From a bacterium (GTDB taxonomy: Bacteria; Bacteroidota; Bacteroidia; Bacteroidales; UBA932): a stretch of 35,473 bases of DNA. The stretch lies in assembly GCA_004561775.1 (NCBI GenBank), contig SFUD01000001.1, positions 1 to 35,473 on the forward strand, read 5' to 3'. The notes under the pieces were generated by a model that saw only the letters and a program-made list of their open reading frames with translations, did not search any database and was not told the origin of the DNA. A program made the translations under genes and the position numbers. This document shows positions 1 to 35,473 of the stretch, piece after piece. The first letter of the stretch is position 1. Every line of letters begins with the position of its first letter.

Positions 1-99
1 TACTTATAGTGTGCGCCCGGTCCTTGCTCTTGAATGGGATGCTTAAATCCTTAACCTTTCACCCCTGCGCCTTGAAAGCGCAGGGGATATAAAACCAAT
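1..99. repeat. Terminal direct repeat identical to 35375-35473. It is an assembly overlap of a circular molecule, not a biological LTR.
   Basis: Compared base by base: both copies read tacttatagtgtgcgcccggtcc...gcgcaggggatataaaaccaat. The repeat holds the last 46 nt (including the TAA at 44-46) of the 34020-35420 CDS plus the downstream hairpin. Confidence 0.95.
62..86 (+). promoter_or_regulatory. Hairpin downstream of the DGR variable repeat (duplicate copy of 35436-35460).
   Basis: cccctgcgc / cttgaaa / gcgcagggg: perfect 9-bp GC-rich stem and a 7-nt loop ending in GAAA. No T-run follows. Confidence 0.7.
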
Positions 100-107
100 C
101 GCATCAT

Positions 108-536
108 ATGGCAGATACAAGAGGTCTCGCAGTCAATAGAGACATATACAACTTTGAGACAATGATGTACCGGGTGTATGACAACATTCCGGCAAAGCAC
201 AAGCATACCCTGTCTGCATTGGCACTCCAATCCACCCTTGATATGAGGCATTACTCCAATCTGGGGTGCAAGATGTACAAGGCGTGCATAGCCGAAAAGG
301 CAAGGCTATTCTCGCTCTCTCTTGGGTATTGTGAGGACTTGCAGGATAGTCTCAATCACCTGTACGATATGGACCTGTTGTCCGGCAAGACCAAATGCAC
401 CCTTGATGCGGCACTTGATGGGATAAGAGGGCAACTCTCAAGATTGGTCAAATCCTTTGAGAAACAATTAAGCAGAGGGGCGGAACACCGGGAGGAAACA
501 ATCGGTGGAGACTCAATATATCAAGAGGAGGGATAA
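108..536 (+). CDS. avd: DGR accessory variability determinant (Avd)-like protein.
   Basis: 142 aa, sitting between the VR-bearing gene and TR/RT as in Bordetella phage BPP-1. The segment YRVYDNIPAKHKHTLSALALQ resembles the Avd / 23S-rRNA-IVS four-helix-bundle family motif (..IP.KH..). The C-terminus is basic. Confidence 0.7.
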   Translation: MADTRGLAVNRDIYNFETMMYRVYDNIPAKHKHTLSALALQSTLDMRHYSNLGCKMYKACIAEKARLFSLSLGYCEDLQDSLNHLYDMDLLSGKTKCTLDAALDGIRGQLSRLVKSFEKQLSRGAEHREETIGGDSIYQEEG

Positions 537-541
537 CTGCA

Positions 542-1939
542 ATGATTTGTAGTCGCATCAACATATCCCATTTACTTCCTTGTGCGGAGTATTCGGCCAA
601 CAACTCGTTCAATTACAATGGCAACAATGGCAAATTGAACAATAACAATAAGAATAATACTTATAGTGTGCGCCCGGTCCTTGAACTTGGTAGATTGCAG
701 ACCTATTTTGAGGATTGCCCATTTCCATTAAGTGAGATATATGACATATACAGGATAACGAAGAAACACAAGGCCTCAAAGCCATCGCACCTGTTGTTTC
801 AACTATACTATCCGCAGTACCTGCGGAGTCTCTGGCAGGACATAAACAACTGCCATTACAGGCCATCATCATCCATTGCCTTTATAATCACGAAACCCAA
901 GGTGAGAGAGGTGATTGCCGCAGATTTCCGGGATAGGGTTGTGCAGACTCTCCTTGTGCAGGAGATGCTGCCATCTCTGGAGGAATACGAACACCCACAC
1001 TCCTACTCTTGCCGAAAGGGCAAGGGTTGCCTTGCCGCAGTCCAACGCCTGCAGGAACTCAATGACCAATACTATGATGGTGTGGTGTGCTTTGTGGACA
1101 TTGCCAATCACTTTATGTCCATAGATACGGAACTCTGGACACCCAGAGTCCTGCAGTTCATTGATGAACACTACGACAAGGGAGAGGACCGCAAGGCTAT
1201 CCTCAAGTACCTTGCCAATACCATATACACCCATAGGCCGCAGGACAATTGTGTCCGTAAATCCCCTATGTGGATGTGGGAGATGTTGCCTCCGCAGAAA
1301 TCCCTGTTCCACTCCGAAAAGGGTGTCCCCATCGGCAATGTGACATCTCAAACCCTCTCCAACTTTGTGACCACAGGATACCTGCGGCTCATAGAGGCGG
1401 CAGGGTTTGACTTTGCGTTCTACACCGATGATACAGGGATGTTTTGCCACAGGGAGGATAAGGACCGCCTCCTGTCCTATCTGCCCATCTTTGAGGACTA
1501 CCTCAAGAGGGAATGCGGCCTCAAGATGCATCCCAATAAGAGATACATACAGGACACTCGCAAGGGTTTCAATGCCTTTGGTTTTCGTATCAAGGACCGC
1601 AACATCACTCCATCCAAGAGGCTTGTGTACAATTTCAAGAGGTTAGTGGGATACCTCCTCCTTTTGGCGGAGGAGGATGTGCGCAACCTGTACCTGTATA
1701 GAGAACAGGCGCAGGCGAGGCTCAATTCCTACCTCGGCCTGTTGAGGTGGTCGCATTCGTACAACCTCCGTAAGGCCCAGATGATACGCCTGCAGGCCTC
1801 CAAATGGGCGCAGATATTCCGTTTCCCTGTAGGATACGAAAAGGTGGAGATAAAGGCCTCCAAGAGCAAGATGGAACACTACAGGAGGCTCAACAAGGTA
1901 AGATATAGGCAGCAACTATCAATATCTAATGCAATATGA
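542..1939 (+). CDS. DGR reverse transcriptase. The start is uncertain: ATG 542 would make TR part of the ORF, and TTG 695 is the only other in-frame start before the RT domain.
   Basis: RT motifs were read in the translation: KPKVREVIAADFRDRVVQ, SYSCRKGKG, FVDIANHFMSID, PIGNVTSQTLSNF (the DGR-type [I/L]GxxxSQ signature), FYTDD (1421-1432) and GFNAFGFRI. Confidence 0.9.
   Translation: MICSRINISHLLPCAEYSANNSFNYNGNNGKLNNNNKNNTYSVRPVLELGRLQTYFEDCPFPLSEIYDIYRITKKHKASKPSHLLFQLYYPQYLRSLWQDINNCHYRPSSSIAFIITKPKVREVIAADFRDRVVQTLLVQEMLPSLEEYEHPHSYSCRKGKGCLAAVQRLQELNDQYYDGVVCFVDIANHFMSIDTELWTPRVLQFIDEHYDKGEDRKAILKYLANTIYTHRPQDNCVRKSPMWMWEMLPPQKSLFHSEKGVPIGNVTSQTLSNFVTTGYLRLIEAAGFDFAFYTDDTGMFCHREDKDRLLSYLPIFEDYLKRECGLKMHPNKRYIQDTRKGFNAFGFRIKDRNITPSKRLVYNFKRLVGYLLLLAEEDVRNLYLYREQAQARLNSYLGLLRWSHSYNLRKAQMIRLQASKWAQIFRFPVGYEKVEIKASKSKMEHYRRLNKVRYRQQLSISNAI
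579..689 (+). repeat. DGR template repeat (TR).
   Basis: 111 nt aligning without gaps to 35296-35406. There are 21 mismatches, all at TR adenines. In the VR frame it reads as AAC/AAT-rich codons (CAEYSANNSFNYNGNNGKLNNNNKNNTYSVRPVLEL). Confidence 0.93.
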
Positions 1940-3768: not shown

Positions 3769-3819
3769 CATTGTCGGAATGACACAAGAGATAATACAAA
3801 CCCTTAATTCAAAAGAAAA

Positions 3820-4192: not shown

Positions 4193-4210
4193 GGGGAGGG
4201 CAACCTCCCC
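4193..4210 (+). terminator. GGGGAGG / GCAA / CCTCCCC hairpin (member of a 5-copy family).
   Basis: 7-bp GC stem with a GNRA loop. No clear T-run. Confidence 0.45.
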
Positions 4211-4269
4211 ACCAAATATCTTTCAGTCAGTTATACTCAATTATTAACCCTTAATCAATCTAAATCATT

Positions 4270-4671
4270 ATGAAACAGGTAATCCTTACCAACACCAATG
4301 GTCAGTACAACGACCTCCTCACCAACAATCTCTACTTTGCTTACTGCAATGCCATCAACACCAAGGCGATTGAGGAGGCAAAACGCAATGCCAACCTTAT
4401 CATTGTATGCCCCTGTGACCGCAAGGAGAATGAGTTTCTCTATTTCTTTGACCTCCGAGACACCACTAACGAGAGTACACGGAGACAGGGAACAACCACC
4501 ACCGAGGCCCTCAAGTTTTATGAGTCGGAGGTGTGCGACCTGTCAAGCAGAATTGGCTATCTCTCCGAGGGGGCAGATATATCCGAGGCTGAATTTGACA
4601 TCCTTGATAAGGTGGGACAACACCTTGACAAGGCCGCAGATGCCCTCTATGATGTCTGGGCCAAGAGGTAA
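4270..4671 (+). CDS. Hypothetical protein (133 aa).
   Basis: Leader motif at 4247-4260 and a hairpin at 4679-4699 after the stop. No recognisable domain. Confidence 0.6.
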   Translation: MKQVILTNTNGQYNDLLTNNLYFAYCNAINTKAIEEAKRNANLIIVCPCDRKENEFLYFFDLRDTTNESTRRQGTTTTEALKFYESEVCDLSSRIGYLSEGADISEAEFDILDKVGQHLDKAADALYDVWAKR

Positions 4672-4678
4672 TCATTCC

Positions 4679-4702
4679 GGGGAGGGTATCCCCCTCCCCT
4701 TT
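4679..4702 (+). terminator. GGGGAGGG / tatcc / CCCTCCCC hairpin plus TTT.
   Basis: Perfect 8-bp stem, 8 nt after the stop codon. Confidence 0.5.
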
Positions 4703-5337: not shown

Positions 5338-5390
5338 TATCCAGATGAGGGGAGGTACTCCTCACGATAACAACCTTAATTCAATATAAA

Positions 5391-5789
5391 ATGGAAAAGA
5401 CAAATAACTCAATCATCGTGAAAGAATTTGTAGGTAGTCACTATGAGGATGTTCCTGTGATGAGGAATGGTAAAGCAACCAAAAGGACCAAGCAGGTAAG
5501 GGTTTGTGATTATGCAGAACTCAACGCAACAGGATACCTCTACAATGGTCACGAGATTTTCCTACTTGACAAGGATGCAGAGGATGAGGAGATGAATTTT
5601 ATAAGGACCTACCGGGCCGATGGTACACGACTCACCTGTATGTGTCAGTTTGGTAGATACGGAGAGGCTGACCACGAAACCACCTGTGACTACTACAAGA
5701 AATCAAAGGTCATCTCTACCCACTCAAGTGGATACCAAGGCTCAACAGGTAGGGGATGGGGAGCATCCATAAAGAGAATAAATTGGTAA
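5391..5789 (+). CDS. Hypothetical protein (132 aa).
   Basis: Has its own promoter, a leader motif at 5373-5385 and a hairpin at 5796-5816. Confidence 0.6.
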   Translation: MEKTNNSIIVKEFVGSHYEDVPVMRNGKATKRTKQVRVCDYAELNATGYLYNGHEIFLLDKDAEDEEMNFIRTYRADGTRLTCMCQFGRYGEADHETTCDYYKKSKVISTHSSGYQGSTGRGWGASIKRINW

Positions 5790-5795
5790 CTAACC

Positions 5796-5816
5796 GGGGA
5801 GGATGACCTCCTCCCC
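5796..5816 (+). terminator. GGGGAGGA / tgacc / TCCTCCCC hairpin.
   Basis: 8-bp stem. No T-run. Confidence 0.4.
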
Positions 5817-5853
5817 TCTATATCAAATAAAAGACCCTTAATTCGCAATCATT

Positions 5854-6165: not shown

Positions 6166-6350
6166 AAACAAGATTGAACAAGAGAGAGGTGGAACTCCTC
6201 CTCTCTCTCCGAGACAGGATAGACTCATTGAGGGACAGGATAGACCCGGAGGATGAGATTATGCTACAGGTAGAGGGCAATGGCACGATAGGAGGACAAC
6301 TTTCCTGTGCATCCGCCTCAATAGACACCATACTACAGGAATATCTATGA
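6162..6350 (+). CDS. Hypothetical protein (62 aa).
   Basis: ATGA coupling on both sides. Internal repeat SLRDRIDSLRDRIDPED. Confidence 0.5.
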   Translation: MKTRLNKREVELLLSLRDRIDSLRDRIDPEDEIMLQVEGNGTIGGQLSCASASIDTILQEYL

Positions 6351-6532
6351 AAGGAGGTGCAAGGCCGGGAGCAGGTCGCAAGAGAGGCCCGGAGGGATTG
6401 AGAGTGACCTTTACCTGCAAGGTCCTCCCCTCAACCAGAGAGAGGATAAAGGAACTCAAGAGACAAGGTATACACATCGGAGAGTTGATGGATAAGTGGG
6501 TGAGAGATTATGCACAAGAGTTTGGTGATTGA
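6347..6532 (+). CDS. Small basic DNA-binding-like protein (61 aa); possible excision or regulatory factor.
   Basis: N-terminal GGARPGAGRKRGPEG motif. Located immediately upstream of the attP-like region and int. Function is inferred from position only. Confidence 0.4.
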   Translation: MKGGARPGAGRKRGPEGLRVTFTCKVLPSTRERIKELKRQGIHIGELMDKWVRDYAQEFGD

Positions 6533-6551
6533 GATAAATTGACTACCTTTG
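6521..6551 (+). promoter_or_regulatory. Near-consensus Bacteroidota promoter: TTTG, N19, TACCTTTG.
   Basis: TTTG at 6521-6524, a 19-nt spacer, TACCTTTG at 6544-6551. Overlaps the stop of the upstream CDS. Confidence 0.6.
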
Positions 6552-6555
6552 TGCA

Positions 6556-6622
6556 GGAGTTTTGGAGTCATCCATCCTCCGATTGAATTAAGGGTGGGGT
6601 GACCGAAAGGTTACCCCTTTTT
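6556..6622 (+). ncRNA. Candidate ~65-nt small RNA (promoter-to-terminator unit without an ATG).
   Basis: Bounded by the 6521-6551 promoter and the 6596-6622 terminator. Segment 6583-6595, TTGAATTAAGGGT, is the reverse complement of the recurrent leader motif ACCCTTAATTCAA. Confidence 0.3.
6596..6622 (+). terminator. Rho-independent terminator.
   Basis: ggggtgacc / GAAA / ggttacccc (9 bp, one G-T wobble) followed by TTTTT. Confidence 0.75.
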
Positions 6623-6632
6623 GCGTAGAAAT

Positions 6633-6845
6633 TGCAATTGTTGGTCCTATGTTGGTCAATAAATACGCAAATCTGCACCTCGCATATCTCTACGGGAGGT
6701 GCAGCAATTCTAACCTATGTTATAACCAAATCCCCCTTGGACACATTCCAGATGCAAGAAATGCAGAAATAGGCTCTCTGCATAGGTTAAAAATAACCCA
6801 TATATTTGTATATTTGCTTGCAAATGTTGGTCAATCCGACCAACA
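6633..6845. promoter_or_regulatory. attP-like region with repeated TGTTGGTC sites (putative integrase arm-type sites) and inverted repeats.
   Basis: TGTTGGTC at 6639-6646, 6650-6657 and 6825-6832, and inverted as GACCAACA at 6838-6845. 9-bp inverted repeat taacctatg (6711-6719) / cataggtta (6781-6789). Hairpin 6673-6681 / 6696-6704. Confidence 0.5.
6801..6816 (+). promoter_or_regulatory. Tandem -7 boxes TATATTTG TATATTTG upstream of int.
   Basis: Two back-to-back perfect TAnnTTTG matches, ending 49 nt before ATG 6865. Confidence 0.5.
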
Positions 6846-6864
6846 ATTATAAGCAATACACATT

Positions 6865-8148
6865 ATGCCGACTTTCAAACCTGTAGTATCCGCCCATCAA
6901 AAGAGGTCCGATGGGTCATACAATATTAAAATCCGCATCACGCATAAAAGAGTATCCCGGTGGATACCTACCAACCTCAACGCCTATGCCTATGACCTCA
7001 CCCGGTCTCTCAACCTCAAGAACAAGGACCTTGAATGGAAATGCAATGACCTTATACGGCAGATGAGGGCCGCACTCGCAGATGTCCCCACCTTTGTCTT
7101 GGAGGAACAGGACATTGATTGGGTGGTGCAGCGCATCAAAGATAAGATGTCCGGCAAGACATTCAACCTTGATTTCTTTGTGTTCGCAGAGGAGTATATT
7201 ACCGCAACCAAGATACCTGCGACACAAAGCAACTACCGCACCGCCCTTAACTCATTCAAGGAATATCTGGGCAAGGAGTCTATTGACATCAATGACATCA
7301 CACACGCAATGGTGCTTGGTTTCAAGGAATGGGTAGATACAACACCCAAGAGGTCAAGGGTTGGGAGAAAGAGACAGGAGGCAAAGGATGACACAACGGC
7401 CAAGAGGCCAAAGTTGCCCGGTGGCGGTAACTCCTCCATCCAGATAATGAAACTTGCACATATCTACAACAAGGCAAAGGATAAGTACAATGATGAGGAT
7501 GAGGACCTCTACCTCATACCTCGCAATCCTTTCAAGAATGTACCTCTATCCTTTCCTCCTGCCCAGACAGGCCAAAAAGCATTGGGGCAGGAATTGATGC
7601 AGCGCATCATCTCTGCGGATGCCACGGGTTCGGACAGGGTAGCACTTGACACCTTTATCCTGTCCTTTGCTATGATGGGGATGAACTTGTGCGACCTGTA
7701 TGCCTCCGCTCCTCCCAAGGGTGGAGTGTTGAGGTATAACAGGAGCAAGACACGGAACAGGAGGGCAGACCACGCAGAGATGGAGGTGATAGTCCCGGAG
7801 GAGGTGGCTGCGATATGTAGCCGATTATGCTCTGCCGATGGGCAGTATTGGCTATCCGACCTCCATAAGAGGTGTCCCTCTGCGGAGAATGTTACCGCCT
7901 ACATCAATAAACTCCTCAAGCATTGGGCCGACAAGGAGGGACTACCTCCGTTCACTTTCTATGCCGCACGGAAAACTTGGGCAACCCTCGCTCGCAAGGC
8001 AGGTGTGGAAAAGGCCACCATTGATGAGTGCCTTGTACATATCGGAGACCTCAAGATGGCCGACATCTATATTGAAAAGGACTATACAATTATGAACGAT
8101 GCCAACAGGATAGTGATGGCCCTCTTTGATTGGCCTATGATGGAATAA
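6865..8148 (+). CDS. int: Tyrosine-recombinase family integrase (Bacteroidota phage/CTn type with an N-terminal arm-binding domain).
   Basis: 427 aa. The N-terminus KPVVSAHQKRSDGSYNIKIRITHKRVSRWIPTNL is typical of the arm DNA-binding domain. The C-terminus has FYAARKTWATLA ... LVHIGDLKMADIYIEKDY (R...H...Y region). Confidence 0.8.
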   Translation: MPTFKPVVSAHQKRSDGSYNIKIRITHKRVSRWIPTNLNAYAYDLTRSLNLKNKDLEWKCNDLIRQMRAALADVPTFVLEEQDIDWVVQRIKDKMSGKTFNLDFFVFAEEYITATKIPATQSNYRTALNSFKEYLGKESIDINDITHAMVLGFKEWVDTTPKRSRVGRKRQEAKDDTTAKRPKLPGGGNSSIQIMKLAHIYNKAKDKYNDEDEDLYLIPRNPFKNVPLSFPPAQTGQKALGQELMQRIISADATGSDRVALDTFILSFAMMGMNLCDLYASAPPKGGVLRYNRSKTRNRRADHAEMEVIVPEEVAAICSRLCSADGQYWLSDLHKRCPSAENVTAYINKLLKHWADKEGLPPFTFYAARKTWATLARKAGVEKATIDECLVHIGDLKMADIYIEKDYTIMNDANRIVMALFDWPMME

Positions 8149-8324: not shown

Positions 8325-8741
8325 CTACTTGGACAGGTGGCTATGAGGGTAAATGCCCCCTTTAGAGATGTATCCCTCTCCCTCCTTAGTGGTGAGCCTG
8401 TCTACCAATTGGGTGAGCCTATCAATGGACTGCGCCATTGAGGTATACATCTTGAGTGTCTCCGCAGGGATGAATACGCCCTCTTGCACCTTGGGTTGAG
8501 GCCGTTCCTCTGCCTGTTCCGGCAGGAGTGTTCCGACTCCTGTGATGAGATAGTTAGCATCAAAGCCGAACAGGTCAGCATAAGCCTTTGCCACCCTGCC
8601 GCCAATAGGCCTCCCAGATAGTTGATTGCTTACTGCCTGTTGGCTGCATCCCATCATTTCTGCGACCTCCGCCATTGTCAAATTGTGGTCCTCAAAGTAT
8701 GATTTTATCTGCCTTGAGATGATTTTGTGTATATCCGCCAT
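8325..8741 (-). CDS. XRE-family HTH repressor (CI-like).
   Basis: The only convincing minus-strand gene. HTH LTMAEVAEMMGCSQQAVSNQLSG. Divergent from the early operon. Confidence 0.8.
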   Translation of the reverse strand: MADIHKIISRQIKSYFEDHNLTMAEVAEMMGCSQQAVSNQLSGRPIGGRVAKAYADLFGFDANYLITGVGTLLPEQAEERPQPKVQEGVFIPAETLKMYTSMAQSIDRLTQLVDRLTTKEGEGYISKGGIYPHSHLSK

Positions 8742-8836: not shown

Positions 8837-9100
8837 ATGCATAACATACAAGACATACTCCGAGATGCAGCGCAGATGGGGGCAGTAAAGGCCCTTGAGA
8901 GTGTGGGCCTTACCACCGGGGAAATCTCGCAGAGGCAGGCCTATGAGACCTATGGTCGCAAGTATATATGCGAAATGGTGGAGAGTGGCCGCCTGCGGCC
9001 CTCACACATCGGCAACGGCAAGACCGGGACAATCCGCTATGCTATTGCTGACATCCTCGCCTGCAGAACCGCAGACAAGATACAAGCATCAATCCTTTAA
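8837..9100 (+). CDS. Small HTH DNA-binding protein (excisionase/MerR-like fold) in the Cro position.
   Basis: 87 aa and the first gene of the early operon. ISQRQAYETYGRKYICEMVESGRLRPSHIGNGKTGTIRY resembles Xis/AlpA-type HTH proteins. Confidence 0.5.
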   Translation: MHNIQDILRDAAQMGAVKALESVGLTTGEISQRQAYETYGRKYICEMVESGRLRPSHIGNGKTGTIRYAIADILACRTADKIQASIL

Positions 9101-9110
9101 TTCAGTCAAT

Positions 9111-9305: not shown

Positions 9306-9332
9306 GTACATAAACCCTTAATCAATCATATT

Positions 9333-9740
9333 ATGCAAACATTCAAATGTTATGAATTATCTCTAAAGGATAGGATGAACACTATCCAACTATCGTTAAT
9401 GGATGACACCAACGAGAAGATAGTGTATGTCGCCTCTCTCCCCAAAGATGCTTTCTTCAATGGGGACTTTACCTCCAAGTGCAAAACAACTCTGGCTATG
9501 AGATGCACCAAGCAAGTGGCAGGCCTTGCGGCCTATGCACAGGTGGAGGATATTATCCACTACAACACCACCATCTCAAAGATGGTTGCACTACTCAAGG
9601 ACTCTCCGCAAAATGCTCTTAATGTGGCAAATGAACTCATCAGCATATCATCCAAGTTTTTACGCAGGATAGATGAGGATGGCATCAACGCCTTTGCCTT
9701 ATACAGGTCAGTTATAGCAACCCTTAATCGCTTTTGTTAA
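9333..9740 (+). CDS. Hypothetical protein (135 aa).
   Basis: Leader motif at 9314-9327. No recognisable domain. Confidence 0.55.
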   Translation: MQTFKCYELSLKDRMNTIQLSLMDDTNEKIVYVASLPKDAFFNGDFTSKCKTTLAMRCTKQVAGLAAYAQVEDIIHYNTTISKMVALLKDSPQNALNVANELISISSKFLRRIDEDGINAFALYRSVIATLNRFC

Positions 9741-10408: not shown

Positions 10409-10431
10409 TTAACCCTTAAATACAATCAATT

Positions 10432-14743: not shown

Positions 14744-14760
14744 GCGATTTTATATTTATG
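14744..14760 (+). promoter_or_regulatory. Late-operon motif, copy A (variant: gcgATTTTATATTTAtg).
   Basis: Shares the ATTTTATATTTA core (14747-14758) with four other copies. Precedes ATG 14766. Confidence 0.5.
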
Positions 14761-14765
14761 TGTAG

Positions 14766-19988: not shown

Positions 19989-20007
19989 GCAATTTTATAT
20001 TTACAGG
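19989..20007 (+). promoter_or_regulatory. Late-operon motif, copy B (gcaATTTTATATTTACAGG).
   Basis: Core at 19992-20003. The leader agagatatactATG is homologous to the copy E leader. Confidence 0.55.
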
Positions 20008-20022
20008 ATATAGAGATATACT

Positions 20023-26825: not shown

Positions 26826-26842
26826 ACCTTTACGATTTCAAT

Positions 26843-26860
26843 GGATTTTATATTTACAAG
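26843..26860 (+). promoter_or_regulatory. Late-operon motif, copy C (ggATTTTATATTTACAAG).
   Basis: Core at 26845-26856. The motif feature ends 3 nt (the core 7 nt) before ATG 26864, so the mRNA may be near-leaderless. Confidence 0.55.
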
Positions 26861-28163: not shown

Positions 28164-28204
28164 ATGGCCTATTTTGCCCTGTAACGAAAATTTTACAGGC
28201 GGAT

Positions 28205-28223
28205 GGGATTTTATATTTACAAT
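28205..28223 (+). promoter_or_regulatory. Late-operon motif, copy D (gggATTTTATATTTACAAT).
   Basis: Core at 28208-28219. Upstream TTTACAGG element at 28192-28199. Confidence 0.55.
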
Positions 28224-29174: not shown

Positions 29175-29198
29175 GGGGAGGGTAACCCCCTCCCCTTT
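29175..29198 (+). terminator. GGGGAGGG / taacc / CCCTCCCC hairpin plus TTT.
   Basis: Perfect 8-bp stem, 7 nt after the capsid stop. Confidence 0.55.
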
Positions 29199-29224
29199 AT
29201 GTTTAACCTTAATACGCACTCACT

Positions 29225-29787: not shown

Positions 29788-29803
29788 GCTCTTTACAGGA
29801 TAG

Positions 29804-29823
29804 GCGCAATTTATATTTACAAG
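29804..29823 (+). promoter_or_regulatory. Late-operon motif, copy E (gcgcaATTTATATTTACAAG).
   Basis: Core at 29809-29819, one T shorter than the others. Upstream TTTACAGG at 29792-29799. Confidence 0.55.
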
Positions 29824-31855: not shown

Positions 31856-32295
31856 CACTCCTTGAGACCATACGCACCATTGAGAGGGTAGCCGCAGCAC
31901 AACCTGCGGTCAATATGATTGTTGAGAATGATGTATTCAAACTCAACGCCTGCCCGGATGCCCTTTATGGAGTCTTTGCCTTTGTGCAGGGGCAGCACTC
32001 TGGAGACATCTCCTCCGATTTCATCTCCTACAATTTCACCCTGTTCTATGTAGACCGCCTTACCTCTGCCAAGGACAACCAGATAGAGGTGCAAAGCACA
32101 GGGGTGCAGGTTCTTGACAATATCATCCGCATCTTGCAGGATGAGGGGATAATGGCCACCCCATACTCATTCCAACCTTTTAACCAGAGGTTTAACGATG
32201 AGTGTGCAGGTGTGTTCTGCAATGTGACATTTGAGGTCCTCAATGCTCCTTGTGGCGAGACCTTTACTGACAATAACAATATCAAGATTATCTAA
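31852..32295 (+). CDS. Hypothetical virion protein (147 aa).
   Basis: ATGA coupling with the upstream gene. Confidence 0.5.
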   Translation: MTLLETIRTIERVAAAQPAVNMIVENDVFKLNACPDALYGVFAFVQGQHSGDISSDFISYNFTLFYVDRLTSAKDNQIEVQSTGVQVLDNIIRILQDEGIMATPYSFQPFNQRFNDECAGVFCNVTFEVLNAPCGETFTDNNNIKII

Positions 32296-32296
32296 T

Positions 32297-34015
32297 ATGG
32301 CAGATTTCTCAACACTCAAATCGCAAGTTGCTGCGGTTGTCCGGGCCAACGGCCTGCAGGACATCAAGGGGTCAAACCTGCAAGAGCAACTCTTTAACAT
32401 CATTGACACGATGAATGCGAGCAAGGTGGATGTGGAGGCAGGAAAGGGCCTCTCAACCAATGACCTCACCACCGCCCTTGTCAATGCCATCACCTCCGCA
32501 GTTCAGCCTGCAGAACTCGCATCTGCAATTGCTGCCGCAGTTGCCTCCTATGTAGCAAAGGCGGATATTGTGGCTATCACAGGTAGCGCAACGGACAAGG
32601 TGATGAGCCAAAAGGCAGTCACCGACAATCTCGCACTCAAGGCTAACAAGGCGGATTATGTAGCCAAGACTGACATTGTGGCAACCGAGGGGTCAAGCGG
32701 CACAAAGGTGATGTCACAGGCTATTGTCACCAACCGCCTTGCCGCAAAGGCTAACGCCTCCGATGTCTATACCAAGGCAGAGGTGGACACCTCCCTTGCA
32801 GGGAAAATGGACACCAATGGCGCATACACCAAGGCCGAGACCCTGGGACTCCTCGCCTCCAAGGCCAATACGGATGATGTGTACACCAAGAATGCGGTGG
32901 ACAACCTCCTCCTGTCAAAAGCATCACAGGCAGGACTTGATGCGGAGGCCGAATTGAGGGCCAATGCGGATGCTGCCCTCAACACCGCAGTTGCTGCCAA
33001 GGCTAACTCTGCGGATGTCTATACCAAGGCACAGGCAGATGCCATAACCAATGCCCTTACCGATAACCTGTCACGCATCCTCCGAGACTTTGGTATGTAC
33101 CCCAACCCAACGGAGTATGTGCTTGTGGTAGGTGTGAGTGGCAAATACATTGACAAGGACTCCGCCCTTGAGGTGGCCAATGGCAACTACTCCATCTCGC
33201 AGCCTATCTCGCTGAAAGCAGGGGACATCTTGCTCGTGCCATCTGCCTCTGCAGTCGCAGCCGCCTGTTCGGTAGTGTCCAAGAAAGTGACCAATACCTA
33301 TGACAAGGTTATCATCTACGCATACACCTACGATGAGTTTGGCAGGATTAACACCGCCACCGCAGACTATAACCCCTCATTGGTCTACACCGCATACTAT
33401 GAGTCCGATGAGCAGACCACCCCTACCAATTGGATAAGGGGCGGAGAACACATCGCAGAACTCCCGGAGACCCACGAGGTCACCGAGTCATTCTATGAGC
33501 CTCTTGTCAAGCAGAGTGTGGCAGGTATGCCGGATACAGGATACTATGTATACCTCGCATCACAGGCAATGGATGTGGTAGTGTCTGCATACAACGCCAC
33601 CATCAACGGAGGTCACGCCATCATTGCAGGTTGGGGCATTTTTAAGAATATTGCCACCAATTTTGTGGGCATTGACAAGCAGAGGGTTATTGCCGAGGCC
33701 ATTGCTGCCCTCTTTGCGCAGGTTGAGGGTATCAACGAGAAACTCACCAACGGCCTTGACCGCCTATCCGTTAAGCACCTGCACATTGACAGGGAACTCT
33801 CTGGACTCAATATCGCAGGGACATTCTGCCTGCAGGGCGCAGGCGTTCCATCTGCATCCGTAGTACCTGTCAATTGGGACTTTGGGCGGTATGGTGATTG
33901 GAAAGGCATTCCGCAGTTCATTGGACAGGAATACTTTGACACTATTGACAAGGTATTCTACAAGGCTCACGGAGTGACTGCCGTATCCGATTGGAAACGA
34001 ATAACAAACGCATAG
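32297..34015 (+). CDS. Tail fiber protein with repeated KA(N/D)..DVYTKAE.D motifs.
   Basis: ATG 32297 lies 2 nt after the upstream TAA; the track start at 32231 overlaps the previous gene. Repeats include KANASDVYTKAEVD, KANTDDVYTKNAVD, KANSADVYTKAQAD and the duplicated KADIVAITGSATDKVMSQKAV / KTDIVATEGSSGTKVMSQAIV. Confidence 0.8.
   Translation: MADFSTLKSQVAAVVRANGLQDIKGSNLQEQLFNIIDTMNASKVDVEAGKGLSTNDLTTALVNAITSAVQPAELASAIAAAVASYVAKADIVAITGSATDKVMSQKAVTDNLALKANKADYVAKTDIVATEGSSGTKVMSQAIVTNRLAAKANASDVYTKAEVDTSLAGKMDTNGAYTKAETLGLLASKANTDDVYTKNAVDNLLLSKASQAGLDAEAELRANADAALNTAVAAKANSADVYTKAQADAITNALTDNLSRILRDFGMYPNPTEYVLVVGVSGKYIDKDSALEVANGNYSISQPISLKAGDILLVPSASAVAAACSVVSKKVTNTYDKVIIYAYTYDEFGRINTATADYNPSLVYTAYYESDEQTTPTNWIRGGEHIAELPETHEVTESFYEPLVKQSVAGMPDTGYYVYLASQAMDVVVSAYNATINGGHAIIAGWGIFKNIATNFVGIDKQRVIAEAIAALFAQVEGINEKLTNGLDRLSVKHLHIDRELSGLNIAGTFCLQGAGVPSASVVPVNWDFGRYGDWKGIPQFIGQEYFDTIDKVFYKAHGVTAVSDWKRITNA
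32558..33058 (+). repeat. Intragenic tandem fiber repeats.
   Basis: Nucleotide-level recurrences such as gatgtctataccaaggc (about 32761 and 33013) and aaggctaac. Confidence 0.6.
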
Positions 34016-34019
34016 AACT

Positions 34020-35420
34020 ATGGCAAATCTATTTTTGTACAAGAATAAGGCAGGGTACAACTCTGCAACTGACCGACCTGCGCAGCAGAGTTCGGTGTCC
34101 TATGATGGGCAGGAGACCATTGTAGATGGCAAGAATGTCATTCTGCCTTTCAAACCCGCTAACGCCCAGATGGGTGATATGGTGGTATATGATACCATTG
34201 ACAACTGCCGCAAGATACTCAAGTGGAAAACCTACCACGCAGGTACTTTTGACTCCTCAAGGTATATTATGGGTAAGGCCCTGTACTTTGGGGCGCAGAA
34301 TGGCAAGGGCATCTGGGCGGGTATTGAGAATGCAGTAAGTGCATCCAAGATGTGGGCAGAGAAATGCTATTTCCGCCTTACAGGCATCAATGTGTCTGCC
34401 GCAGGCTCATTCACTTTCAAGACCTACTACTCTTGGGCATCTCATCCAGACAATGTTGTCTCTTGGGATGCAGGCGCAACCCTCGCATCTATTGTTGCCA
34501 CCATCAACGGCCTTGGCCTGTCTGCCTCCTATTTCAAGGCTGCGGTCCTCGCGGATGGTACAGGTATCGGTATCTGGGTGAACTACCCTACTACTGATAA
34601 TGTCTCCGCAATATTCTCCATCACCGCAGGTGGGGAGGGTATCAATGTGGAGTATATGAACAAGTACAACGGACAGGATGTGGTATGGCAATATGTTACC
34701 ACCTCTACCATCATTCCGGGCAGGACTCCTGCCAAGAATGTACTGCGCAGGAATGGCCTGTCTACATATTGGGGAGGCGGCCACTTTGCCAAGTTTGTGG
34801 ACTATTATGGTACAAATGGCAAGGCGGAATACGCCCCGGAGACATCTAATGACCCTATGAACAGGGCCACATTCAACGCCCTTGCCGAGTCCTTGGTTGA
34901 GGCAGAAAAGGCCCTCTATGACAAGTACAATGGTTCATATGAGGAGTATATTGAGGGCGCAATGGTCCTCTGCGATACCGCAAGGGATATTATGGGTGTC
35001 TCATACGATGATGCCTCCTACCAGACTGCCCTACTTGGACAGGTGATGACCAAGGACTATGACAACAATGTCATCCCGGCATTCCCTGCCGCCTACTACG
35101 CCCATATCTATGGAGTCAATGCCGCAGTACCTACAGGCTTTGAGACAGGCAAGTGGGGACTCCCTACCACCTACCAGATGGTGAAACTCATTGAGTTGGT
35201 AGGCCTCAACGCCAATAACAAAACGGATTTCAACAGGGCCATTGACAAGTTCAATGCTGCAGGAAATTTCTATGGTAGCGGATACTATTTCTGGACTTGT
35301 GCGGAGTATTCGGCCGGCGGCTCGTTCAATTACGGTGGCGACTATGGCTTTTTGTACATTGACCCTAAGTATGGTACTTATAGTGTGCGCCCGGTCCTTG
35401 CTCTTGAATGGGATGCTTAA
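34020..35420 (+). CDS. DGR target protein: receptor-binding or adhesin protein with a C-terminal DUF1566/C-type-lectin-fold variable domain.
   Basis: 466 aa, immediately after the tail fiber. The C-terminus GKWGLPTTYQMVKLIEL...YYFWTCAEYSAGGSFNYGGDYGFLYIDPKYGTYSVRPVLALEW follows the DUF1566 pattern (W.LP...EL..L ... YWS....... VR.V). The VR occupies the last 125 nt. Confidence 0.85.
   Translation: MANLFLYKNKAGYNSATDRPAQQSSVSYDGQETIVDGKNVILPFKPANAQMGDMVVYDTIDNCRKILKWKTYHAGTFDSSRYIMGKALYFGAQNGKGIWAGIENAVSASKMWAEKCYFRLTGINVSAAGSFTFKTYYSWASHPDNVVSWDAGATLASIVATINGLGLSASYFKAAVLADGTGIGIWVNYPTTDNVSAIFSITAGGEGINVEYMNKYNGQDVVWQYVTTSTIIPGRTPAKNVLRRNGLSTYWGGGHFAKFVDYYGTNGKAEYAPETSNDPMNRATFNALAESLVEAEKALYDKYNGSYEEYIEGAMVLCDTARDIMGVSYDDASYQTALLGQVMTKDYDNNVIPAFPAAYYAHIYGVNAAVPTGFETGKWGLPTTYQMVKLIELVGLNANNKTDFNRAIDKFNAAGNFYGSGYYFWTCAEYSAGGSFNYGGDYGFLYIDPKYGTYSVRPVLALEWDA
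35296..35406 (+). repeat. DGR variable repeat (VR).
   Basis: Ungapped 111-nt alignment to TR 579-689 with 90 identities. All 21 differences correspond to A in TR. The invariant GC-rich 3-prime end gtgcgcccggtcc is IMH-like. Confidence 0.93.
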
Positions 35421-35473
35421 ATCCTTAACCTTTCACCCCTGCGCCTTGAAAGCGCAGGGGATATAAAACCAAT
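35375..35473. repeat. Second copy of the terminal overlap (= 1-99).
   Basis: Exact 99-nt identity with the window start. Confidence 0.95.
35436..35460 (+). promoter_or_regulatory. Hairpin 30 nt downstream of VR (DGR target-site structural element candidate).
   Basis: cccctgcgc / cttgaaa / gcgcagggg. No U-tract, and the essential lysis genes lie downstream in the same orientation. Confidence 0.6.

What the first reader, a model, noticed from the sequence alone, without database searches (positions are those of the whole stretch)
6521..6622. Candidate phage sRNA whose single-stranded segment is antisense to a leader motif upstream of about 9 phage genes
The sequence TTTG (6521-6524), N19, TACCTTTG (6544-6551) matches the Bacteroides -33/-7 consensus better than any other promoter I found in the window. 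About 45 nt further on is a strong intrinsic terminator at 6596-6622 (9-bp stem, GAAA loop, T5). The ~65-nt unit has no ATG on the + strand.

Just 5-prime of the terminator stem, 6583-6595 reads TTGAATTAAGGGT. This is the exact reverse complement of ACCCTTAATTCAA at 3800-3812, which ends 8 nt before ATG 3820. The extended segment (reverse complement ccccACCCTTAATTCAATCgg) can pair over 8-14 nt with related motifs lying 3-24 nt upstream of the start codons at 4270, 5391, 5854, 9333, 9743, 10432 and 29225. A promoter, a seed and a terminator hairpin together make the classic trans-acting sRNA layout.

Such an RNA, made from the attP-proximal end of the accessory region, could co-regulate translation of many early and accessory genes. 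I am not aware of a described equivalent in Bacteroidota phages. This is a hypothesis drawn from sequence alone.
Basis: inference. Interest (0 to 1): 0.75.

Follow-up and report, generated by a model that had tools for sequence, protein, structure and literature searches.

The report
Phage small RNA matching gene leaders
A temperate gut phage, probably of Bacteroidota, carries a roughly 67-nt promoter-to-terminator unit whose unpaired middle is antisense to a short tag just upstream of eight or nine of its own start codons. Related phages keep the same unit with a different, matching tag, which makes it a strong candidate for a new phage regulatory RNA that has not yet been detected experimentally.

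Summary
6521-6551 is the only full TTTG-N17-21-TAnnTTTG match in the window. 6596-6622 is a terminator. The predicted RNA (6556-6622) folds into a 5' hairpin, a 15-nt unpaired linker and a terminator.

The linker (6581-6595) is antisense to ACCCTTAAT(TCAA). This motif has 7 exact 8-mer copies against 0.9 expected. Six lie 7-14 nt upstream of ATGs, and the seventh is the antisense copy.

Comparative data give the main support:
- Every integrase-linked relative with enough upstream DNA has the same unit at the same place. So does the cultured Bacteroides phage Versailles, though its second hairpin lacks a clean T run.
- RNA bodies differ between lineages, but each linker is antisense to that phage's own start-site motif.
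- In an 8-lineage swap test, cognate pairs gave 31 hits against at most 8 for any mismatched assignment (0 of 14,833).
- Targets recur across lineages: Erf, Gp157, SSB, integrase and the CI-like repressor.
- In one subfamily the seed is invariant while both stems covary.

Best reading: a trans-acting sRNA that blocks translation initiation of switch, early and accessory genes (confidence 0.65). Expression and effect are untested. There is no Rfam or literature match. I rate it a new variant of a known kind, interest 0.78.

The parts
6521..6551 (+). Predicted Bacteroidota-type promoter: -33 TTTG (6521-6524), 19-nt spacer, -7 TACCTTTG (6544-6551). The -33 element overlaps the end of ORF 6347..6532.
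   Evidence: It is the only full-consensus match in the window. A TA(C/T)CTTTG box sits at the same relative position in L001-L009, L014-L036 and phage Versailles, usually with (T/C)TTG 19-20 nt upstream.
6556..6622 (+). Predicted small RNA, about 67 nt. The 5' end is inferred from the spacing to the promoter.
   Evidence: MFE -27.7 kcal/mol, z = -3.25 against shuffles, MFE structure equal to the centroid. The sequence is identical (0-1 mismatch) in six strain variants whose accessory genes differ. No Rfam match.
6556..6580 (+). 5' hairpin (GGAG...CUCC enclosing GGAG/UCC).
   Evidence: Fold. Every relative has a 5' hairpin of different sequence, and it covaries in the subfamily.
6581..6595 (+). 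Unpaired linker, the seed: GAUUGAAUUAAGGGU.
   Evidence: Unpaired in both the MFE and centroid structures. It is antisense to the leader motif.
6596..6622 (+). Intrinsic terminator: 9-bp stem, GAAA loop, U5.
3800..3812 (+). Target leader motif ACCCTTAATTCAA, 7 nt before ATG 3820 (121-aa accessory gene).
   Evidence: 13-nt perfect complement; duplex -19.4 kcal/mol.
4247..4261 (+). Target ACCCTTAAT-CAATC before ATG 4270 (133 aa).
   Evidence: 9 + 5 bp with a one-base bulge, -18.1 kcal/mol. The same leader precedes a different 163-aa ORF in strain variants.
5374..5385 (+). Target CCTTAATTCAAT, 5 nt before ATG 5391 (132 aa).
   Evidence: 12-nt complement. The same leader precedes a different 121-aa ORF in variants L042 and L044.
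5834..5844 (+). Target ACCCTTAATTC, 9 nt before ATG 5854 (103 aa).
9093..9105 (+). Degenerate target tCCtTTAATTCAg, 5 nt before ATG 9111 (64-aa gene called in source annotations).
   Evidence: It pairs over 11 bp including one G:U.
9314..9328 (+). Target ACCCTTAAT-CAATC before ATG 9333 (135 aa, early operon).
9720..9728 (+). Target ACCCTTAAT, 14 nt before ATG 9743 (Erf-like recombinase).
10412..10419 (+). Target ACCCTTAA, 12 nt before ATG 10432 (Gp157/Gam-like).
29207..29213 (+). Weak possible target CCTTAAT, 11 nt before ATG 29225.
   Evidence: Only 7 nt and -9.1 kcal/mol, which is not above background.

Best explanation
6556-6622 is a small non-coding RNA gene of a temperate phage, probably of Bacteroidota. 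It is transcribed from its own host-type promoter and ended by its own terminator. It sits at the end of the genome that becomes the attR side of the prophage.

Its 15-nt unpaired linker, plus a few bases of the neighbouring stems, base-pairs in trans with a short leader tag (ACCCUUAAU...). This tag lies 5-14 nt upstream of the start codons of eight or so phage genes. Four are accessory cassette genes before attP (3820, 4270, 5391, 5854). The rest are early genes after the repressor/cro switch (9111, 9333, Erf 9743, Gp157-like 10432).

The duplex falls inside the ribosome's initiation footprint. In relatives it covers the ATG itself. The most likely effect is therefore occlusion of the start site, that is, translational repression. 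That would place a whole set of switch, early and accessory genes under one RNA. The tag and the seed evolve together.

Shown:
- the anatomy of the unit;
- conservation of the unit;
- seed-target co-variation across lineages;
- recurrence of the same target genes across lineages.

Inferred:
- that the RNA is made;
- its exact 5' end;
- repression rather than activation;
- the physiological role, either damping leaky lytic and int expression in lysogens or immunity against related incoming phages.
For: - **Anatomy.** This is the only full-consensus promoter in the window. It has a terminator and a two-hairpin fold with an open seed.
- **Motif enrichment.** 7 copies against 0.92 expected. The top-7 duplex energy is beyond all 1000 shuffles.
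- **Conservation of the unit.** It lies 210-313 nt upstream of int in the 22 of 31 surveyed relative loci where the automatic detector found it. L001 (with its duplicate L012) and L004-L006 were added by eye. It is 61-85 nt long and always has the layout hairpin, 15-21 nt linker, terminator. Four loci had too little upstream DNA, and L028, L029 and L034 gave no call and were not examined further.
- **System-level covariation.** There are eight different seeds, each antisense to its own genome's start-site motif. The diagonal sum is 31, against a best of 8 among 14,833 derangements. The off-diagonal mean is 0.29 (details).
- **Orientation.** The motif follows gene orientation. In L009, L018, L023 and L027 it sits at the start of the minus-strand CI-like repressor.
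- **Recurrent targets despite different seeds.** Erf, Gp157, SSB, int and the CI-like repressor.
- **Subfamily signature.** In the 10-sequence subfamily, TGTATAAAGATT is invariant and 6 of 13 stem pairs show compensatory changes.
- **Strain variants.** The RNA is unchanged while different ORFs sit behind the same leader.
- **Cultured phage.** Bacteroides phage Versailles has an analogous unit whose seed is antisense to 4 annotated starts over 10-15 nt.
Against: - There are no expression data of any kind, so the promoter and 5' end are predictions.
- The window's int start is not a target, although int is one in many relatives.
- Several targets pair over only 8-9 nt.
- The mismatch spectrum at imperfect sites does not clearly favour G:U-compatible changes (12 against 7, not significant). 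There is therefore no direct signature that selection acts on RNA pairing rather than on DNA identity.
- In some relatives the CI-like repressor is also a target, which does not fit a simple 'keep lysogeny' model.
- The Versailles unit lacks a clean T run after its second hairpin.
Confidence: 0.65

Rival explanations
1. DNA-level explanation. The repeated 9-16 bp motif is an operator for a phage DNA-binding protein, such as the CI-like repressor or the small RHH-like protein encoded just upstream. The copy at 6583-6595 would simply be one more binding site in the opposite orientation, and no RNA pairing would be involved.
For: The motif is a repeated, phage-specific sequence, as operators are. 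A small protein that looks RHH-like by eye is encoded right before the unit in the window and in several relatives. The wobble test did not show an RNA-specific signature.
Against: - The sites are not palindromic.
- They sit 0-17 nt from start codons, often inside operons, not at promoters.
- They always follow the sense strand of the gene, including minus-strand genes.
- The only antisense copy is always the one framed by a conserved promoter and terminator, and it lies in the unpaired part of a conserved two-hairpin fold.
- In several phages the complementarity runs through the ATG.
- The RHH-like gene is absent upstream of the unit in L001 and L007, and Pfam did not recognise it.
Confidence: 0.1
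2. No trans function. The hairpin and T run merely terminate the upstream operon. The leader motifs are boundary sequences that drive recombinational swapping of gene cassettes, and the inverted copy is a by-product of such recombination. A variant of this idea is that the unit is a cis leader or attenuator of int, whose read-through transcript folds back on the int start.
For: Strain variants do carry different ORFs behind the same leader. G-rich terminator hairpins flank the cassettes (families D6 and D12). The terminator lies 64 nt after the last ORF. In the circular form the unit is on the same strand as int, about 280 nt upstream, and int's start is complementary in L001, L002, L003, L009, L016 and L025.
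Against: - A by-product would not be kept in 8 lineages with different seeds, each matched to its own genome. It would also not keep a consensus -7/-33 promoter between the ORF and the terminator.
- The seed is invariant while the stems covary.
- Most targets are kilobases away, on other transcripts and even on the other strand, so cis folding cannot explain them.
- After integration, attP recombination separates the unit from int.
Confidence: 0.1
3. The RNA is real and pairs with the leaders, but it activates or stabilises the mRNAs, or guides their processing, rather than blocking translation.
For: Pairing alone does not give the sign of the effect. In the window the duplex ends 5-14 nt before the ATG, leaving the start codon itself free.
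Against: In the largest subfamily, in L016 and L025, and in Versailles, the duplex abuts or covers the start codon, with a gap of 0 to -4. This is hard to reconcile with activation. No inhibitory leader structure that pairing would open was seen.
Confidence: 0.1
4. The minus-strand copy is the leader of a small minus-strand gene (ATG 6571 or 6575), not an antisense RNA.
For: On the minus strand the order is hairpin, ACCCTTAATTCAA, TCGGAGG, ATGGATG, which mimics the cassette layout. A 46-aa minus-strand ORF (6571..6431) exists.
Against: - That ORF overlaps the conserved + strand gene 6347..6532.
- L001 has no ATG after its inverted motif.
- In L002 and in the other frame of the window, the ORFs are 10 codons long and end in the reverse complement of the -7 box (read).
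- There is no minus-strand promoter.
Confidence: 0.03

Closest known systems
c4 antisense RNA of phages P1/P7 (immI immunity; Rfam C4 family)
   Same: Both are phage-encoded small RNAs of about 70-80 nt. Short unpaired stretches pair with complementary sites at a ribosome-binding region and repress phage genes. Seed and target differ in a matched way between related phages, which in P1/P7 gives heteroimmunity (from my own knowledge of the literature).
   Different: c4 is cut out of the same transcript it controls and acts on one operon (icd-ant). This unit has its own promoter and terminator and matches 8-9 starts on several transcripts and on both strands. There is no sequence or structure similarity (no Rfam hit). 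The hosts are Bacteroidota, which lack Shine-Dalgarno-led initiation and Hfq.
CI RNA of satellite phage P4, and lambda OOP / P22 sar antisense RNAs
   Same: All are small phage RNAs that control lysis-lysogeny genes by pairing.
   Different: P4 CI causes transcription termination within its own operon. OOP and sar are cis-antisense RNAs with full complementarity to one neighbouring gene. This unit is trans-encoded with a short seed and many targets.
Bacteroides trans-acting sRNAs (e.g. GibS of B. thetaiotaomicron) and RteR of the conjugative transposon CTnDOT
   Same: They share the host-type -33/-7 promoter, a single-stranded seed, an intrinsic terminator and action on mRNA start regions. RteR shows that mobile elements of Bacteroides use sRNAs (my own knowledge).
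   Different: Those RNAs are chromosomal or ICE-encoded and are unrelated in sequence. None is known to read a repeated leader tag on a phage's own genes.
Prophage sRNAs of enterobacteria (DicF, IsrK, AsxR/AgvB, svsR, Pas)
   Same: All are encoded by prophages and are base-pairing regulators (papers listed).
   Different: Those act mainly on host mRNAs or host sRNAs and depend on Hfq. This unit's visible targets are the phage's own switch, early and accessory genes.
PeSL-type mobile regulatory cassettes of T4-like phages / boundary sequences of lambdoid phages
   Same: Both are short repeated intergenic modules (a hairpin plus a conserved leader) flanking small genes that are swapped between strains.
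   Different: Those repeats are thought to act through DNA recombination and promoters. They have no matching antisense RNA gene.

Membership tests
Trans-acting base-pairing sRNA (generic class) | Own promoter | tested here: met
   It is the only TTTG-N19-TAnnTTTG match in the window. The -7 box, and usually the -33 element, are conserved at the same position in all relatives. This is prediction plus conservation, not a mapped start.
Trans-acting base-pairing sRNA (generic class) | Intrinsic terminator forming the 3' end | tested here: met
   Present in relatives. Atypical in Versailles.
Trans-acting base-pairing sRNA (generic class) | Accessible, conserved seed with covarying flanking stems | tested here: met
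   The linker is unpaired. The seed is invariant, and 6 of 13 pairs show compensatory changes in subfamily A2.
Trans-acting base-pairing sRNA (generic class) | Complementarity to several mRNAs above chance, at functional sites | tested here: met
   The sites lie 0-17 nt from start codons.
Trans-acting base-pairing sRNA (generic class) | A discrete transcript is made and changes target expression | not testable with these tools
C4 antisense RNA (P1/P7) and other curated phage RNA families in Rfam | Match to the family covariance model | tested here: not met
   There is no hit at gathering score in the whole window. The only hit at E <= 10 in 6450-6900 is a chance-level one on the other strand (RmaA, E = 5.2).
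C4 antisense RNA (P1/P7) | Processed from, and acting on, its own operon transcript | tested here: not met
   The unit has a separate promoter and terminator. Its targets lie on other transcripts and on both strands.
Bacteroidota sigma-ABfr-type promoter | -7 TAnnTTTG with -33 TTTG about 19-21 nt upstream | tested here: met
   The consensus itself is from my own knowledge (Bayley et al. 2000).
Integrase arm-type sites of attP | Repeats clustered in the two arms around the attP core | tested here: not met
   The arm repeats are a different sequence: TGTTGGTC at 6639-46, 6650-57 and 6825-32, and inverted at 6838-45. The leader motif lies kilobases away at gene starts.
Small protein-coding gene | Conserved ORF with a start codon | tested here: not met
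   There is no ATG on the + strand in 6556-6622. In relatives the ORFs through the unit vary from none to about 34 codons, with stops at different places (read from the sequences).

The most novel reading that the evidence does not exclude
These phages run an RNA 'address-tag' regulon. One constitutively made sRNA reads a short leader tag placed on the integrase, the repressor, the early recombination genes and whatever accessory cassette is plugged in behind the tag. Seed and tag co-evolve and so define RNA-based immunity groups among Bacteroidota temperate phages. This would resemble P1/P7 c4 immunity, but acting genome-wide and without a chaperone. Newly acquired cassettes would come under control automatically.
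Probability: 0.35. Interest if true: 0.85.

Novelty: new variant of a known kind. Interest (0 to 1): 0.78.

Why it matters
Very little is known about how temperate phages of Bacteroidota, the dominant gut phylum, control lysogeny, and I found no description of an sRNA encoded by one of these phages. If confirmed, this would be a compact post-transcriptional layer over the lysis-lysogeny switch in hosts that lack Shine-Dalgarno-led initiation and Hfq.

It comes with a natural set of eight matched seed/tag pairs that behave like a compensatory-mutation experiment. It would also explain why swapped accessory genes keep the same leader. It suggests a programmable knock-down tool for Bacteroides, in which a gene is tagged with the leader and the sRNA is supplied.

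The question is directly testable, because a cultured member exists: phage Versailles in B. caecimuris I48 of the OMM12 consortium.

Tried and rejected
- **Minus-strand gene.** The minus-strand ORF 6571..6431, with the motif as its leader, was rejected. It overlaps a conserved + strand gene, and relatives have no equivalent ORF.
- **Peptide coded by the unit.** Rejected. The window has no ATG, and the ORFs in relatives are of inconsistent length.
- **Arm-type integrase sites.** Rejected. The arm repeats are a different sequence.
- **Rfam.** Nothing at gathering threshold or at E <= 10.
- **GenBank phages by DNA (blastn).** No match.
- **IMG/VR pattern scans.** CTTTG-N-TGTATAAAGATT was too loose. 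It gave 120 hits, none a true member on inspection. TACCTTTG-N-TTGTATAAAGATTT found only L002's own contig and unrelated low-GC contigs. Prevalence beyond the integrase-linked set therefore remains unknown.
- **Wobble-bias test at imperfect sites.** 12 G:U-compatible against 7 non-compatible transitions. This is inconclusive, and the sites are not independent.
- **Count of start regions with duplex energy <= -10 kcal/mol.** Uninformative, because the GC-rich ends of the seed window pair with SD-like GGAGG stretches. Only the top-7 energy sum and the exact-match counts were used.
- **GTDB genome scan.** It gave one short contig binned into an 'Eubacteriales' MAG (L009) and one unrelated Bacteroidales locus (L010). 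No integrated copy with host flanks was found, so attB and the host species are still unknown.

Full report
**1. The observation**

Direct reading of 6200-7000 confirms every coordinate:
- TTTG at 6521-6524, a 19-nt spacer and TACCTTTG at 6544-6551.
- TTGAATTAAGGGT at 6583-6595.
- The hairpin GGGGTGACC-GAAA-GGTTACCCC at 6596-6617, followed by T5.

The -33 element overlaps the end of a 61-aa ORF (6347..6532). The consensus scan also reports the terminator. The pattern TTTG-N17-21-TAnnTTTG occurs once in the 35.5-kb window, at this site. A single hit is not significant on its own.

The predicted RNA 6556-6622 folds into a 5' hairpin (6556-6580), an unpaired linker (6581-6595) and the terminator. 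The MFE is -27.7 kcal/mol, z is -3.25, and the MFE structure equals the centroid.

**2. The leader motif is real**

ACCCTTAA occurs 7 times against 0.92 expected, and 0 of 100 shuffles reach 7. Six copies are on the + strand, each 7-14 nt before an ATG: 3820, 4270, 5854, 9333, 9743 and 10432. The seventh is the minus-strand copy inside the unit.

Other sites:
- ATG 5391 has CCTTAATTCAAT, a 12-nt complement.
- A degenerate copy before ATG 9111 pairs over 11 bp with one G:U.

For one given 13-mer, an exact inverted copy in 35 kb is expected about 5e-4 times (my calculation, 35,473/4^13). The antisense copy is therefore not chance. Against 49 curated start regions, the sum of the seven best duplex energies is -123.8 kcal/mol. 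Seed shuffles give -92.5 +/- 7.1, and 0 of 1000 reach the observed value.

**3. Context**

The window is a circular contig: bases 1-99 equal 35375-35473. The unit lies between the last gene of an accessory region and an attP-like region, which is followed by a tyrosine integrase (6865..8148).

- 8325..8741 (minus strand) is an HTH repressor.
- 9743 encodes an Erf-like recombinase.
- 10432 encodes a Gp157/Gam-like protein.

The tagged genes are therefore four accessory genes before attP and the first genes of the early operon. No late gene carries a convincing tag; the only late-region candidate is the weak site before ATG 29225. After integration the unit would sit at the attR end, separated from int.

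**4. Relatives**

Integrase-based searches gave loci from three sources: IMG/VR (L001-L008), one MAG contig (L009) and metagenomes (L011-L039). Integrase identity to the window is 41-46%.

Among the loci with enough upstream DNA, most show the same unit:
- a TA(C/T)CTTTG box, usually with (T/C)TTG 19-20 nt upstream;
- a 5' hairpin;
- a 15-21 nt unpaired linker;
- a GC-rich terminator with a T run.

The unit is 61-85 nt long and ends 210-313 nt before the int ATG. The automatic detector found it in 22 of the 31 relative loci surveyed. By eye I added L001 (with its duplicate L012), which the T-run rule missed, and L004-L006, whose terminator tail is atypical. Four loci (L013, L017, L021, L039) had too little upstream DNA to include the unit. 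L028, L029 and L034 gave no call and were not examined further. The body of the RNA is not conserved between lineages.

**5. The decisive result**

In each lineage, the linker, often with the 3' arm of the first hairpin, is antisense to a motif repeated at that phage's own start codons. The motif differs between lineages.

| Lineage | Start-site motif |
|---|---|
| window | ACCCTTAAT(TCAA) |
| L001/L016 | TCAACACAACGGAA(CG) |
| L003 | AAGTTTCACAATCTACC |
| L007/L035 | TAACACCTTTTTA |
| L008 group | CCTTTAACACTC |
| L014 | ACCTTTTCAATA |
| L025 | CCACCAC(TA)CCGCTATG |
| L002, L009, L018, L020, L022-24, L027, L030, L031 | AAATCTTTATACAATG |

I ran a swap test with one representative per seed type. 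It used the linker only, and counted 9-nt or longer perfect complements within -25..+4 of ATGs opening at least 50 codons, on both strands. The cognate diagonal sums to 31 and the off-diagonal mean is 0.29. The best of all 14,833 derangements reaches 8.

The motif always lies on the sense strand of the gene. This includes the minus-strand CI-like repressor (HTH_3 + Peptidase_S24) in L009, L018, L023 and L027.

The same kinds of genes recur as targets although the seeds differ:
- Erf: window 9743 and L009 3602.
- Gp157: window 10432, L009 4302 and L001 14235.
- SSB: L001 16838.
- The integrase start itself in many lineages, with 12-16 nt of complementarity that often covers the ATG.

The window's own int is not a target.

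**6. RNA-type conservation**

In the 10-sequence subfamily alignment A2, TGTATAAAGATT is invariant. Both stems vary, and 6 of 13 predicted pairs show compensatory changes. L001 and L016 share the seed but have different 5' hairpins.

Six strain variants of the window phage, all with identical integrase, have an identical unit (0-1 mismatch). They carry different ORFs behind the same leaders: 163 aa in place of 133 aa, and 121 aa in place of 132 aa.

**7. A cultured member**

The integrase's nearest isolate is Bacteroides phage Versailles (ON453897.1, 35% identity). It is an induced prophage of B. caecimuris in the OMM12 consortium (PMC10197239).

At its right end it has TTTG-N19-TATCTTTG, a hairpin, the linker GTTGCATTGTA and a second hairpin. 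Integrase arm-type repeats follow. The second hairpin lacks a clean T run.

The hairpin arm plus linker is antisense to (ACA)ATGCAACACCGA(T) at four annotated starts:
- CDS 5468: 14 nt, covering the ATG.
- CDS 32166 on the minus strand: 15 nt, directly abutting the ATG.
- CDS 20087: 10 nt.
- CDS 13737: 10 nt.

Together with the Bacteroides-only hits of the integrase and of the reverse transcriptase, this supports a Bacteroidota host. It also gives an experimental system.

**8. Mechanism**

Steps that are shown:
- a conserved promoter-to-terminator unit;
- an open seed;
- seed-to-start-site complementarity that co-varies across lineages and follows gene orientation.

Steps that are inferred:
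- The RNA is made.
- It pairs in trans.
- Because the duplex lies within the initiation footprint and often covers the ATG, it blocks 30S binding and represses translation.

The long seeds (9-17 nt) fit a host without Hfq (my own knowledge).

The physiological role is less clear. One option is damping of leaky int and early-gene expression in lysogens. Another is RNA-based immunity to related incoming phages. Targeting of the CI-like repressor in one subfamily complicates a simple lysogeny-maintenance model.

**9. Rivals**

- **DNA operator for a phage protein.** This does not explain the strict sense orientation, the position at start codons inside operons, or why the only antisense copy is always framed by a promoter and a terminator.
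- **Plain operon terminator plus recombination boundary repeats.** This explains the cassette swapping, but not the conserved promoter or the eight matched seed/tag pairs.
- **Cis attenuator of int.** This cannot reach targets on other transcripts or the other strand, and it is cut off from int by integration.
- **Minus-strand or + strand peptide gene.** This was rejected on ORF inconsistency.
- **RNA against DNA signature.** A wobble-bias test that could have separated the two levels was inconclusive (12 against 7).

**10. Comparison with known systems**

The unit works like the phage immunity RNAs, above all c4 of P1/P7, where matched seed and target differences give immunity specificity. 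It also works like ordinary trans-acting sRNAs of Bacteroides.

It is not a member of the C4 family or of any other Rfam family. Five literature searches found no description of it.

It differs from c4, P4 CI, OOP and sar in three ways:
- It has its own promoter.
- It has a short seed.
- It has many targets spread over several transcripts.

It differs from enterobacterial prophage sRNAs in that its visible targets are the phage's own genes.

**Verdict:** a new variant of a known kind, well supported by comparative sequence evidence and untested experimentally.

Noticed in passing
window 108-1939 and 34020-35420 (TR about 579-689; VR 35296-35406): A diversity-generating retroelement. ORF 542..1939 matches reverse transcriptases of Bacteroides phages F1/F2/F4 and BS-TP1 at 28-32% identity. 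The 111-nt repeat is 81% identical (D1). Compared with 15-nt flanks, 26 of the 43 differences are A in the 579-689 copy changed to another base in the copy at the 3' end of ORF 34020..35420. This is the hallmark of adenine-specific mutagenesis.
   Followed up: partly
window 1-99 and 35375-35473: An exact 99-bp terminal direct repeat. The window is a circularly closed contig of about 35,374 bp (D2).
   Followed up: yes
window 6623-6864: An attP-like architecture. It has direct repeats TGTTGGTC (6639-46, 6650-57, 6825-32) and an inverted copy (6838-45), which are probable integrase arm-type sites. It also has a hairpin (6675-6702) followed by CAATTCTAACCTA (6705-6717). The core (C)AATTCTAACCTAA is conserved in L004-L009, and in altered form in L001, while the hairpin sequence varies. 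It is probably the crossover core. attB and the host gene are unknown, and the window has no tRNA.
   Followed up: partly
window 4193-4210, 4679-4699, 5796-5816, 29175-29195: A family of G-rich hairpins, GGGGAGGG-loop-CCCTCCCC followed by TTT. Each closes a small accessory gene and precedes the next leader tag (D6 and D12). Together with the tag they form cassette boundaries.
   Followed up: partly
L040-L045 (strain variants of the window phage), window 4270-4671 and 5391-5789: Strains with an identical integrase and sRNA carry different ORFs in the same slots: 163 aa in place of 133 aa, and 121 aa in place of 132 aa. The leader tag is kept. In some variants a sense copy of the tag also sits just before a terminator hairpin.
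   Followed up: partly
window 19992-20014, 26829-26859, 28192-28222, 29792-29822, about 14745-14765: A conserved motif, (TTTAC...)ATTTTATATTTAC(A), lies 15-20 nt upstream of the ATGs of late genes 14766, 20023, 26864, 28203 and 29839 (D7 and D16; listing). It is probably a late promoter giving very short leaders. These genes lack the sRNA tag.
   Followed up: no
window, upstream of ATGs 542, 2207, 5019, 11020, 11678, 12196, 14112, 31265: Shine-Dalgarno-like (A)GGAGG sits 6-9 nt before many translationally coupled genes (listing). This is unexpected for a Bacteroidota host, where such sequences are generally not used. The tagged genes have no such sequence.
   Followed up: no
window 6347-6532 and homologues in L002, L004-L006, L008, L009: The small basic protein encoded just upstream of the unit (N-terminus GGARPGAGRK, then a pattern that looks like ribbon-helix-helix by eye) is conserved in many relatives, but not in all: it is absent in L001 and L007. 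Pfam and PHROGs give no hit. It might be an excisionase or regulator, or be linked to the RNA.
   Followed up: no
window 32739-33035: Three copies of a 45-nt repeat (64-84% identity) inside ORF 32231..34015, probably a repeat-containing tail fibre protein (D4).
   Followed up: no
window 9333 vs 9375: Source gene calls start this gene at 9375 (121 aa). The leader tag at 9314-9322, with its usual 10-nt spacing, argues for ATG 9333 (135 aa).
   Followed up: no
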